Shown here: positions 5,701-9,013 of the stretch, piece by piece
Layout of the letters: every line of letters starts with the position of its first letter
Numbering within the stretch: the stretch's first letter is position 1
Assembly (NCBI RefSeq): GCF_964194155.1
Contig: NC_135890.1
Coordinates: 6,696,001-6,760,000, forward strand
DNA length: 64,000 nt
Direction: 5' to 3'
Source of the DNA: Cetorhinus maximus
Taxonomy: Eukaryota
Notes under the pieces: generated by a model
What the model was told of the DNA's origin: nothing
Seen by the model: only the letters and a program-made list of their open reading frames with translations
The model's database searches: none
Program-made: the position numbers and the translations under genes

Positions 5701-8700
5701 ACCCTAAAGGCTGCTCCTTTCTACCTTAAACCAATTGACAAATGTTTTTGCAACTTATTTTGTGCTCGAAGGCACAGTAGAAAGAGACAGATGAGAAAAA
5801 AAGTGGGTCACACCCATTTGGAAATAAAACATTCCTTGAAAATGATGGTTTGATACTGAGAAATCAACAGCATAAATCAGATGAAAGCAGATAGTAAACG
5901 TGGGTAAGATGTAAAAAATCAAAAGAACATGAATTTGAATTACATTTACCTTTCTTTCTGGTTTCTGGATTTCAGGAAGAACAGCACAAAACGGCTTGAT
6001 GACTTCTAAAAATTTGACTGCAATGAACAACAATATTAAATTTCAAACAACCTAAAAAAAAAAATCTGTATCCCACAGGGCTCCATTAGCTTCTAAATAA
6101 TACTGTTTTTAAGACAATTCTGCAACAAAAATTTCACTTCTCCTGCTACTATTTTGTCAATGGATCAAGAGGAAATCTGGGCAACAGTAGACAAAAAAAA
6201 AATGCCAGGGACAGTGCCAGCTTTTCGGTTCTTTATCCTTAGAATGTTGCAGAAGGAATTACTTAGAAAATTGCATTGAAAACAAAAAATTGGAAGAAAA
6301 CACTGGGGCTGCAAAAAAGTGATTCTGTCCCTCTGTGTAACTTGGATCGCGCATTAAGAAAATCTTGCACTGAATCGTGAGGGAGAGTACAGGCTTCAGA
6401 TGTGCCACACTCTACCAAGTATCTACATTTACAGAAACGCATCGACGGACAGGAGCTATTCCTGAACTCAAGAGGTGGCGTTAAACCCTAAATCCTCAGA
6501 TCAACATTGTCAATAGTGAAAAGAATACAATCCATTAAAGCTGCAGAGTATGTATCTTACACTGCTATTGTAAAAATTAGCACAAAGCACTAATGGTTTT
6601 AATGTGTGCTGCCCTTTAGCAAGCCACTCCTCGGGATTGGCGCCTCAATCAAAAGCAAGTGAGTAATGAAAAAAAAAGAACTCTGGAAATTCACAACAGG
6701 TCAGGCAGCGTCTGTGAAGAGAAAAACAGAATTATGCTTTCAGGTCAGTGATGACCCAGCATCTGCAGCATTTTCCTTCTCTAAAATTCAATGAGTACCT
6801 GATTAAGACTACATGTTCCAATTAATTTCATTTTTTACAGTATTACCCTACAGGTCTGATAAATTTCTACATATTGCAATGAATACATAAAAAAAAGAGA
6901 CTTTGACTGCATTTTTACAAAATGATCACTTTGATCACAATAAGTAATTCACTGGCAGTAAAACAGGCTGAGACATCCTGAGAATGTTAAAGCCATTCCA
7001 TAATTTCCTCACATGTGCGAACGCATTATCAATAACTAAAACAGAATTAAGTAAAATAAGATTTAGGTGGACCTTTCATCACAATCTCAAGCACTAGCTT
7101 CTGCACTCCTCTATTCAAAATCACGACTAAAAGTTGGCAAAGAAACAGTGTTATTTACACAGTATGGATTCACAGTTTTTGAGGACTCGAAACATCAACT
7201 CTTTTCTTCTCCACCGATGCTGCCAGACCTGCTGAGTTTTTCCAGGTAATTCTGTTTTTGTTATGGATTCACAGTTGCTGGGTGGGTGTTAAGAGGCTAA
7301 CTCAGGCTTTGTCCAATTAGAACAGACTAAAGTCAGTGTTCTGATGATCAAGCTGAAATGTTAACTCTATTTCTCTCTTTGCAAATGCTGCCTGGCTTGC
7401 TGAGTATTTCCAGCGATGTTTTTTTTTTAATTTCACATCTCCTATATCTGCAGTATTTACTCCCAGATGAGAGTCAGCTTGGAGTGAATGCAATGAGGGT
7501 TGACACTATATGAAAGGCATAGAATATCCCTGGATAACAACTGTGTGAGAGTAATGGTGAATGAGTGTCCCTCTCTCTCTGTCTCACTGGCCAGGCCAGG
7601 ATTATGCCCAATCCCCAGGGCCGGACCTGTGCCCACCCCACCTTTGGGCCAGGCCTATGCACATTCCAGCCCCAGGTCGGGTTGGGTTCATGCCCCACAC
7701 CCCAGCAGGTTTGGTTCATGCCCACACCCCTCCCCCGTGCTGGGTATATTACACTCAATCCCCTCCGCCACCGGCATATACTCACTCCACCCCACGCTTT
7801 ACACTCACTCTCCTCCCCCTCCCCGCTTTACACTCACTCNNNNNNNNNNNNNNNNNNNNNNNNNNNNNNNNNNNNNNNNNNNNNNNNNNNNNNNNNNNNN
7901 NNNNNNNNNNNNNNNNNNNNNNNNNNNNNNNNNNNNNNNNNNNNNNNNNNNNNNNNNNNNNNNNNNNNNNNNNNNNNNNNNNNNNNNNNNNNNNNNNNNN
8001 NNNNNNNNNNNNNNNNNNNNNNNNNNNNNNNNNNNNNNNNNNNNNNNNNNNNNNNNNNNNNNNNNNNNNNNNNNNNNNNNNNNNNNNNNNNNNNNNNNNN
8101 NNNNNNNNNNNNNNNNNNNNNNNNNNNNNNNNNNNNNNNNNNNNNNNNNNNNNNNNNNNNNNNNNNNNNNNNNNNNNNNNNNNNNNNNNNNNNNNNNNNN
8201 NNNNNNNNNNNNNNNNNNNNNNNNNNNNNNNNNNNNNNNNNNNNNNNNNNNNNNNNNNNNNNNNNNNNNNNNNNNNNNNNNNNNNNNNNNNNNNNNNNNN
8301 NNNNNNNNNNNNNNNNNNNNNNNNNNNNNNNNNNNNNNNNNNNNNNNNNNNNNNNNNNNNNNNNNNNNNNNNNNNNNNNNNNNNNNNNNNNNNNNNNNNN
8401 NNNNNNNNNNNNNNNNNNNNNNNNNNNNNNNNNNNNNNNNNNNNNNNNNNNNNNNNNNNNNNNNNNNNNNNNNNNNNNNNNNNNNNNNNNNNNNNNNNNN
8501 NNNNNNNNNNNNNNNNNNNNNNNNNNNNNNNNNNNNNNNNNNNNNNNNNNNNNNNNNNNNNNNNNNNNNNNNNNNNNNNNNNNNNNNNNNNNNNNNNNNN
8601 NNNNNNNNNNNNNNNNNNNNNNNNNNNNNNNNNNNNNNNNNNNNNNNNNNNNNNNNNNNNNNNNNNNNNNNNNNNNNNNNNNNNNNNNNNNNNNNNNNNN

Positions 8701-9013
8701 NNNNNNNNNNNNNNNNNNNNNNNNNNNNNNNNNNNNNNNNNNNNNNNNNNNNNNNNNNNNNNNNNNNNNNNNNNNNNNNNNNNNNNNNNNNNNNNNNNNN
8801 NNNNNNNNNNNNNNNNNNNNNNNNNNNNNNCTCACTCCCCGCCCCCCCCCGGGGTTTATACTCACTCCCCGCCCCCCCGGGGTTTATACTCACTCCCCGC
8901 CCCCCCCGGGGTTTATACTCACTCCCGCCCCCCCCGGGGTTTTTCCTCACTCCCCGCCCACCCGGGGTTTATACTCACTCCCCGCCCCCCCCGGGTTTAT
9001 ACTCACTCCCCAT
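2606..9013 (-). CDS. SEC61A2: Protein transport protein Sec61 subunit alpha, isoform 2; exons 1-6 join(9013-9007,6017-5950,4758-4693,4605-4527,3830-3699,2715-2606); gene continues beyond the left window edge
   Basis: Spliced translation [80 protein letters not shown]...[41 protein letters not shown]. All introns GT-AG and phases consistent (7,68,66,79,132,110 nt). Residues FCAVL, GQAIV, GDPAEM and adjacency to DHTKD1 favour A2 over A1. Confidence 0.93.
3135..3630 (-). mobile_element. L2 LINE 3' fragment, degenerate
   Basis: Similarity to 32280-32760 and 47415-48075. Confidence 0.55.
3699..3830 (-). CDS. SEC61A2: SEC61A2 exon 5 ([44 protein letters not shown])
   Basis: 132 nt, ttgcag acceptor, gtgagt donor. 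Confidence 0.95.
4527..4605 (-). CDS. SEC61A2: SEC61A2 exon 4 ([26 protein letters not shown])
   Basis: 79 nt, ttatag acceptor, gtaggt donor. Confidence 0.95.
4693..4758 (-). CDS. SEC61A2: SEC61A2 exon 3 ([22 protein letters not shown])
   Basis: 66 nt, ccatag acceptor, gtgagt donor. Confidence 0.95.
5117..5345 (+). mobile_element. SacSINE1/DeuSINE-like SINE (internally deleted)
   Basis: TGGCTCAGT..GTAGCACTCT..CCTCTGAGTCA..GGTTCAAGTCC head; TATATAAATGCAAG tail. Confidence 0.75.
5950..6017 (-). CDS. SEC61A2: SEC61A2 exon 2 ([22 protein letters not shown])
   Basis: 68 nt, ttgcag acceptor, gtaaat donor. Confidence 0.95.
7178..7261 (+). mobile_element. 84-bp Penelope pLTR fragment
   Basis: GGACTCGAAAC...GATGCTGCCAGACCTGCTGAGTTTTTCCAGG; 15-bp TSD TATGGATTCACAGTT (7163-7177 / 7262-7276). 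Confidence 0.8.
7745..9010 (-). repeat. ~28-bp minisatellite (GGGGAGTGAGTATAAACCCCGGGGGGGC) in SEC61A2 intron 1, spanning the assembly gap
   Basis: Well-conserved units at 8831-9010; degenerate TTTACACTCACTC units left of the gap (7745-7839). Confidence 0.9.
7840..8830. other. Assembly gap (991 N)
   Basis: Run of N. Confidence 1.
9007..9013 (-). CDS. SEC61A2: SEC61A2 coding exon 1 (ATGGGGA)
   Basis: Kozak-like GGCACCATGG then GGA|GTGAGT donor; the final A plus TC of exon 2 gives Ile3. Confidence 0.85.

What the first reader, a model, noticed from the sequence alone, without database searches (positions are those of the whole stretch)
7745..9013. SEC61A2 intron 1 begins with a tandem array of copies of its own 5' splice site
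Seen: the minisatellite unit includes the last exonic bases plus the donor (GGGGA|GTGAGTAT). Donors occur at 9006 (the real one), 8978, 8950 (GTGAGG), 8922, 8893, 8865 and 8835 (spacing 28-30 nt), and degenerate copies reappear beyond the 991-N gap, so the array may exceed 1.2 kb. Reading on from the ATG gives [12 protein letters not shown] then TGA (8977-8975). Use of donor 2 therefore frameshifts, and use of any later donor includes a premature stop. Established: G-runs downstream of donors bind hnRNP H/F, and U1 sites near promoters suppress premature polyadenylation. Inference: this may be a decoy-donor array whose copy number tunes productive versus NMD-bound SEC61A2 mRNA or U1 loading.
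Basis: partly seen in the sequence, partly recalled or inferred. Interest (0 to 1): 0.7.

Follow-up and report, generated by a model that had tools for sequence, protein, structure and literature searches.

The report
Splice-donor minisatellite in SEC61A2 intron
The end of the start-codon exon of a SEC61A2 gene, splice signal included, is copied at least nine more times into the next intron; this layout is already known from human F7 and other genes, and the cell likely uses the first copy and ignores the rest.

Summary
The array is real: a 28-nt minisatellite (9011-8831, minus strand, 6.4 copies, 90% alike) starts in the ATG codon, spans the donor at 9006 and repeats it six times, with three degenerate donors beyond the N run. 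Any later donor would wreck the frame. The layout is a known kind: human F7, CBS, 6-16, LMNB2, PDGF and amphioxus 'mirages'. In F7 only the first donor is used, whatever the copy number or G-triplets (PMC1557585). A relative's transcript contig ends exactly at 9007, but the junction itself and pseudo-donor use were not observed. Against the NMD-tuner idea: the stops fall at codon 13 or 27, in or at the edge of the start-proximal zone where NMD is weak (PMC12776119). The unit is locus-specific, the paralog lacks it, and consensus-donor triplets are not enriched genome-wide. Correction: the ATG exon is likely an internal 83-nt exon, so this is probably intron 2. Such arrays are not routine (0 of 80 Ras-family exon ends). 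The scan noted similar cases before on other DNA, two in this genome. Verdict: new member of a known kind, likely neutral.

The parts
8831..9011 (-). 28-nt minisatellite, 6.4 visible copies. The first unit holds the last 5 exonic bases and the authentic donor; units differ mainly in G-run and C-run length
   Evidence: TRF; units listed
8999..9009 (-). authentic 5' splice site (exon ends 9007, GT at 9006-9005); weak exonic part, intronic +1..+8 pairs with U1
   Evidence: only donor giving an open Sec61 alpha frame; a relative's contig ends at 9007; U1 duplex -8.4 kcal/mol
8831..8981 (-). six pseudo-donors at 8978, 8950, 8922, 8893, 8865 and 8835; four are identical to the authentic site from -3 to +8, 8950 is weaker, 8835 is cut by the N run
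8975..8977 (-). in-frame TGA (codon 13), included by donor 3 and all later donors
7735..7839 (-). degenerate copies of the unit (GTGAGT at 7837, 7808, 7785, plus a fourth decayed unit); likely the old distal edge of the same array
   Evidence: local alignments; continuity across the N run not shown
9007..9089 (-). start-codon exon, likely an internal 83-nt exon with 7 coding nt (ATG at 9013); holds an unused-looking GTGAGT at 9052
   Evidence: an 84-nt contig of a relative lies exactly at 9007-9090; acceptor test
9090..9183 (-). candidate 94-nt 5' UTR intron: donor at 9183 (inferred; 9216 and 9142 score alike), branch point at 9118-9112, pyrimidine tract, AG ending 9090; holds three upstream ATGs (9181, 9166, 9155)
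   Evidence: only 1 of 719 AGs in 20000-9001 passes the tract + branch + YAG filter; upstream ATGs; donor not seen in RNA
5950..6017 (-). next coding exon (68 nt), acceptor ending 6018
   Evidence: Sec61 alpha match; covered and spliced on to later exons in contigs of relatives B and D
9312..9819 (-). second, unrelated GC-rich minisatellite in the promoter region (periods 19, 41, 87)
   Evidence: G4Hunter mean -1.45, i.e. G-rich on the + strand

Best explanation
This is a locus-specific minisatellite that likely arose by local slippage or unequal exchange of a 28-nt piece spanning the exon end, and its extra donors are likely silent passengers because the spliceosome would pick the first one. 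Shown: the anatomy, the frame damage from any later donor, the locus-specificity and the absence from the paralog. Inferred: (a) origin by tandem duplication in a GC-rich, CpG-island-like gene start that carries a second array 300 nt upstream, with G-runs perhaps aiding instability; (b) the upstream edge is fixed by the ATG, since the array cannot spread into it; (c) the first donor wins, as in F7, helped by exon definition across the 83-nt exon from the strong acceptor at 9090; (d) any small leak to donor 2 is tolerated noise.
For: Same layout as F7, 6-16, CBS, LMNB2 and PDGF; only the first donor is used in F7, LMNB2 and PDGF (PMC1557585 introduction). F7 splicing was unchanged by 1-12 monomers, by stronger pseudo-sites up to CV 91 and by G-triplet mutation. 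Amphioxus mirages do not disturb splicing (PMC3087553 passages). The 24-nt unit core (up to 1 mismatch) has 5 matches in the 3.99-Gb assembly, all in this array. The paralog's matching donor has no array. GTGAGT triplets at 22-36 nt spacing number 383,455 against 375,113 for the reversed control; AGGTAAGT triplets 630 against 1,172, so donor-like arrays are not enriched. Units vary in homopolymer length and decay distally, as drifting minisatellites do. A relative's contig ends exactly at 9007, and nothing from four runs was laid on 8940-9006.
Against: A contig ending at 9007 cannot tell unspliced RNA from donor-2 use, and the relatives may lack the array. The pseudo-donors are not predicted to be masked: joint unpaired probability 0.14-0.23 against 0.09 for the authentic site. 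The authentic donor is weak on a rough matrix (1.8 bits against 4.4-8.1 for the gene's next four donors), so G-runs could be helping it. A higher-scoring GTGAGT at 9052 lies upstream and seems unused, so 'first donor wins' is not the whole rule (F7 also ignores exonic sites). 6-16 and CBS do use their next two pseudo-sites. Donor-spanning arrays are not routine here: 0 of 80 Ras-family exon ends.
Confidence: 0.75

Rival explanations
1. Leaky VNTR of the CBS or 6-16 type: donors 2 and 3 take a measurable share of splicing, and copy number shifts SEC61A2 dosage as a side effect, without selection for it.
For: Four pseudo-donors equal the authentic site from -3 to +8 and look as accessible. 6-16 and CBS use their two nearest pseudo-sites. 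CBS repeat number is reported to lower activity (review PMC5188458; primary paper not seen).
Against: F7, LMNB2 and PDGF show no leak. No contig was laid on unit 1 or 2 (weak, relatives only). The products would stop at codon 13 or 27 and likely escape NMD in part, so they would be visible rather than hidden.
Confidence: 0.15
2. Functional helper: the G-runs and repeated U1 sites strengthen the weak donor of the short start-codon exon, or load U1 to protect the transcript, and the array is kept by selection.
For: The donor's exonic part is fixed by the Met-Gly-Ile codons and scores low. The array holds 14 runs of 3 or more G, G4Hunter mean 1.17. G-run enhancers and U1 telescripting are established (recalled).
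Against: G-triplet mutation and monomer deletion had no effect in F7. The paralog has the same 7-nt coding exon end and no array. The readable intron has no AATAAA and two ATTAAA. The authentic donor already pairs U1 through +8.
Confidence: 0.07
3. Assembly artefact: the copies are inflated or misjoined next to the N run.
For: GC-rich homopolymer arrays are hard to sequence, and the array abuts a 991-N run.
Against: Units carry distinct substitutions, and decayed units lie on the far side, which simple collapse or duplication errors would not create. The N need not be an assembly gap.
Confidence: 0.03

Closest known systems
Human F7 intron 7 37-bp VNTR (Borensztajn et al. 2006, PMC1557585; read: abstract, introduction, parts 3 and 4 of 6)
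   Same: The first monomer spans the exon-intron boundary and holds a few exonic bases (4 in F7, 5 here); identical pseudo-donors follow; units carry G-runs; most pseudo-sites would break the frame.
   Different: 28-nt unit; sits at the start-codon exon in a GC-rich gene start, not at a late internal exon; stops would be start-proximal; polymorphism and donor use are not measured here.
Human 6-16 (IFI6) intron 2, CBS intron 13, LMNB2 and PDGF intron 4 minisatellites (as cited in PMC1557585; primary papers not seen)
   Same: Donor reiterated in a tandem array at the start of the intron.
   Different: 6-16 and CBS use the two nearest pseudo-sites; whether this locus does is unknown.
Amphioxus 'mirage' repeats (Adh3, globins BflGb6 and BflGb9; PMC3087553, passages)
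   Same: Tandem duplication of an exon-intron boundary, reported not to disturb splicing, with decayed units at the cluster edge.
   Different: Mirages are described as fairly general in amphioxus; here 0 of 80 sampled exon ends have one.
Regulated unproductive splicing (AS-NMD) (recalled)
   Same: An alternative donor would give a premature stop.
   Different: No conservation or regulated use is shown, and the stops lie at codons 13-27, where NMD is weak.

Membership tests
Donor-spanning minisatellite (F7 IVS7 / mirage type) | Tandem array whose first monomer spans the exon-intron boundary | tested here: met
   TRF array 8831-9011 starts 5 nt inside the exon; donor at 9006
Donor-spanning minisatellite (F7 IVS7 / mirage type) | Downstream pseudo-donors identical to the authentic one | tested here: met
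   4 of 6 visible copies identical from -3 to +8, same U1 energy; 1 weaker; 1 cut by the N run
Donor-spanning minisatellite (F7 IVS7 / mirage type) | Most upstream donor used exclusively or mainly | tested here: inconclusive
   Only donor 9006 keeps the frame; a relative's contig ends at 9007; no junction and no raw reads of this species seen
Donor-spanning minisatellite (F7 IVS7 / mirage type) | Copy-number polymorphism | not testable with these tools
   One assembly; all four full holders are from one sample; N run unread
Regulated unproductive splicing (AS-NMD) | Alternative product is an NMD substrate | tested here: inconclusive
   Stops at nt 37 and 79 of the frame; inside the ~200-nt rule; codon 13 inside and codon 27 at the edge of the LMNA/HBB dead zone (PMC12776119)
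Regulated unproductive splicing (AS-NMD) | Element conserved in paralogs or orthologs | tested here: inconclusive
   Absent from the paralog; orthologous introns not obtained
Regulated unproductive splicing (AS-NMD) | Alternative site measurably used and regulated | not testable with these tools
   Only contigs, mostly of relatives
Dispersed satellite or transposon-derived repeat | Unit found at many places in the genome | tested here: not met
   5 matches genome-wide, all in this array; BLAST hits elsewhere are 69-77% G-run look-alikes with other units
SEC61A2 (versus SEC61A1) | Sec61 alpha gene beside DHTKD1 | tested here: met
   two Sec61 alpha loci in the genome; no tree built

The most novel reading that the evidence does not exclude
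The array is a dosage dial for the ER translocon: repeated U1 sites and G-runs set how well the 83-nt start-codon exon of SEC61A2 is defined, so that repeat length shifts the share of transcripts that splice at the true donor, slip to a frame-breaking donor, or skip the ATG exon altogether.
Probability: 0.07. Interest if true: 0.6.

Novelty: new member of a known kind. Interest (0 to 1): 0.17.

Why it matters
As read here it matters little: one more donor-spanning minisatellite, of a kind described in human and amphioxus genes. Its modest use is as a natural test of 5' splice-site choice at a start-codon exon, where any slip gives a start-proximal stop that NMD may not clear, so leak could be counted directly. 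If copy number did tune SEC61A2, it would be a repeat-length control of translocon dosage, which would interest splicing and ER biologists.

Tried and rejected
Run search: no RNA holder listed on record; 16 guessed-RNA contig runs (1 of the organism that holds the DNA in full, 15 of three relatives). X1, the same-organism run, and X3 covered none of exons 2-5. X2, X9 and X12 laid nothing on 8940-9330; the tool warns this can be false, so it is not used as evidence. RNA folding as the reason pseudo-donors are silent: rejected, they look at least as open as the real one. Canonical four-tract G-quadruplex with loops up to 12 nt: none in the array, so G4-driven instability (CEB1 papers seen as search listing only) is only a possibility; C-run/G-run hairpins compete. 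Dispersed satellite origin: rejected. Genome-wide enrichment of donor arrays: not seen; the control is weak because the reversed hexamer fits the same GTGA-type repeats. Look-alike search of earlier findings by sequence: none. Orthologous introns could not be fetched: G000 has no relatives held. Literature on this locus: none among the titles (30 of 146 listed; 12 of 12; 12 of 12; 20 of 32); the library lacks most subscription papers. No supplements were read.

Full report
Observation. On the minus strand the ATG lies at 9013 and GTGAG occurs at 9006, 8978, 8950, 8922, 8893, 8865 and 8835, then at 7837, 7808 and 7785 beyond a 991-N run. TRF reports a 28-nt array of 6.4 copies at 8831-9011 with 90% matches. 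Seven GTGAG in 181 nt compare with a mean of 0.33 and a maximum of 3 in 2,000 shuffles. The units differ mainly in G-run and C-run length, with one weakened donor at 8950. The distal units align to the unit but are decayed. The N run says nothing about what lies beneath, so the claimed length above 1.2 kb is untested.

Gene. The exon at 6017-5950 matches Sec61 alpha (E 1e-8), and the upstream same-strand gene is DHTKD1 (E 1e-27), a neighbour of SEC61A2 in human (PMC11884146, passages). The genome has two Sec61 alpha loci. The paralog's N-terminus is nearly the same, so the A2 name rests on synteny.

Frame consequences. Only donor 9006 gives an open frame (117 aa over the exons tested). Donor 8978 adds 28 nt and stops at codon 27; all later donors include the TGA at codon 13. 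PMC12776119 (passages) reports that stops within the first 21-23 codons of LMNA and HBB, about 50 of BRCA1 and about 100 of VHL largely escape NMD.

A correction to the gene model. A guessed-RNA contig of relative D lies exactly at 9007-9090, 84 nt with 3 differing letters and no loose end. Position 9007 is the last base before the donor. Position 9090 closes an AG preceded by a pyrimidine tract (0.89) and a branch-point motif, the only such acceptor among 719 AGs in 20000-9001. A contig bounded like this is what an internal exon gives in an assembly graph (inference). The ATG exon is thus likely an internal 83-nt exon after a short 5' UTR intron (donor probably 9183, not seen in RNA) that holds three upstream ATGs. 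The array intron is then intron 2.

RNA evidence and its limits. No holder is on record as RNA, and all data are contigs. Exons 2-5 are joined at GT-AG introns in relatives B and D. Nothing from four runs was laid on units 1-2. That cannot measure pseudo-donor use: contigs drop rare forms, the relatives may lack the array, and three of the four runs laid nothing there at all.

Why the first donor would win. Four pseudo-donors equal the authentic site from -3 to +8 (U1 duplex -8.4 kcal/mol, U1 end recalled) and are predicted to be at least as open (0.14-0.23 against 0.09). Sequence and folding therefore do not protect the real site; position must. That is what PMC1557585 showed for F7: only the most upstream donor is used; deleting or adding monomers (1 to 12), raising pseudo-site strength to CV 91 or mutating G-triplets changed nothing. 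The same paper cites 6-16 and CBS as using their two nearest pseudo-sites, and LMNB2 and PDGF as using only the first. A review reports that CBS repeat number lowers enzyme activity (PMC5188458, passages), which keeps a leaky-VNTR rival alive. A GTGAGT at 9052 scores higher on a rough matrix (3.3 against 1.8) but lower on U1 pairing (-5.8), and the relative's contig runs across it; F7 likewise ignores exonic sites.

Genome context. The unit core occurs 5 times in 3.99 Gb, all here; BLAST look-alikes are other G-run arrays. The paralog's matching donor has no array, with 2 GTRAG in the first 1,200 intronic nt. GTGAGT triplets number 383,455 against 375,113 reversed, and AGGTAAGT triplets 630 against 1,172, so donor-like arrays show no excess. 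Simple tandem repeats are reported as abundant in some elasmobranch genomes (10.1101/2025.06.08.657570, passages). Against 'routine': of 150 Ras-family matches, about 97 ended at or before profile position 135 and I analysed 80; 0 of 80 had an array spanning the likeliest donor, 2 had one starting within 100 nt and 2 had one near the acceptor. Four of the 80 have no plausible donor, and some come from the same genes. No other donor of SEC61A2 or DHTKD1 in the window has an array. The gene start is GC-rich (CpG o/e 0.65-0.82) and carries a second array at 9312-9819, which fits a local hotspot for minisatellite birth (inference). The array is G-rich (G4Hunter mean 1.17, 14 G-runs) but has no canonical short-loop G4.

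U1 and telescripting. The 2,989-nt intron has no AATAAA and two ATTAAA in its readable part, so little premature polyadenylation is there to suppress. This is weak evidence, given the unread third.

Known kind and verdict. The layout meets the two structural features of the F7/mirage class (PMC1557585; PMC3087553, passages); donor use is inconclusive and polymorphism untestable here. PMC10078293 (passages) shows that tandem repeats can affect splicing in humans in general. Earlier AI notes of this scan describe similar arrays on other DNA, two in this genome; they are leads, not support. Best reading: a tolerated, locus-specific donor-spanning minisatellite with likely silent pseudo-donors (0.75); leaky dosage VNTR 0.15; selected helper 0.07; artefact 0.03. 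Interest 0.17.

Noticed in passing
window 9090-9183 (-): Likely 94-nt 5' UTR intron with a textbook branch point and tract, holding three upstream ATGs; retaining it would add upstream ORFs, one in the main frame but closed by a stop.
   Followed up: partly
window 9312-9819: Promoter-side minisatellite rich in GC-box-like motifs (motif name recalled), strongly G-rich on the + strand; the paralog's promoter has a different 62-nt repeat with CCAAT-like boxes (L040 3815-4028).
   Followed up: no
window 9225-9279 (-): Two perfect CRE-type palindromes (9279-9272, 9232-9225) and an ETS-like motif (9253-9247) near the likely start site (motif names recalled).
   Followed up: no
L040 around 3660 (-): The paralog's intron start loosely resembles the array unit (donor, AACC, then a G-run with AG); chance or an old shared G-rich motif that seeded slippage; untested.
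   Followed up: no
window 62131-63212: 42-nt minisatellite, 25.8 copies, 92% alike, with long open frames on both strands.
   Followed up: no
L002 1-6312 (G000:C588): Array of about 256 copies of a 23-24-nt G-rich unit with 247 GTGAGT on one strand, running off the contig end.
   Followed up: no
G000:C7:24729877-24730195 and C8:68304485-68306215: Two Ras-family exon matches repeated at short distance with the same profile span: possible tandem exon duplications.
   Followed up: no
G000:C3:210579505-210581989: 28-nt array about 2.5 kb long with a near-consensus donor (AGGTAAGT) in nearly every unit; not checked whether it starts at a real exon.
   Followed up: no
L076 (G000:C815:110864-112664): 70-nt array of at least 11 copies ending 29 nt before a Ras-family exon match.
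   Followed up: no
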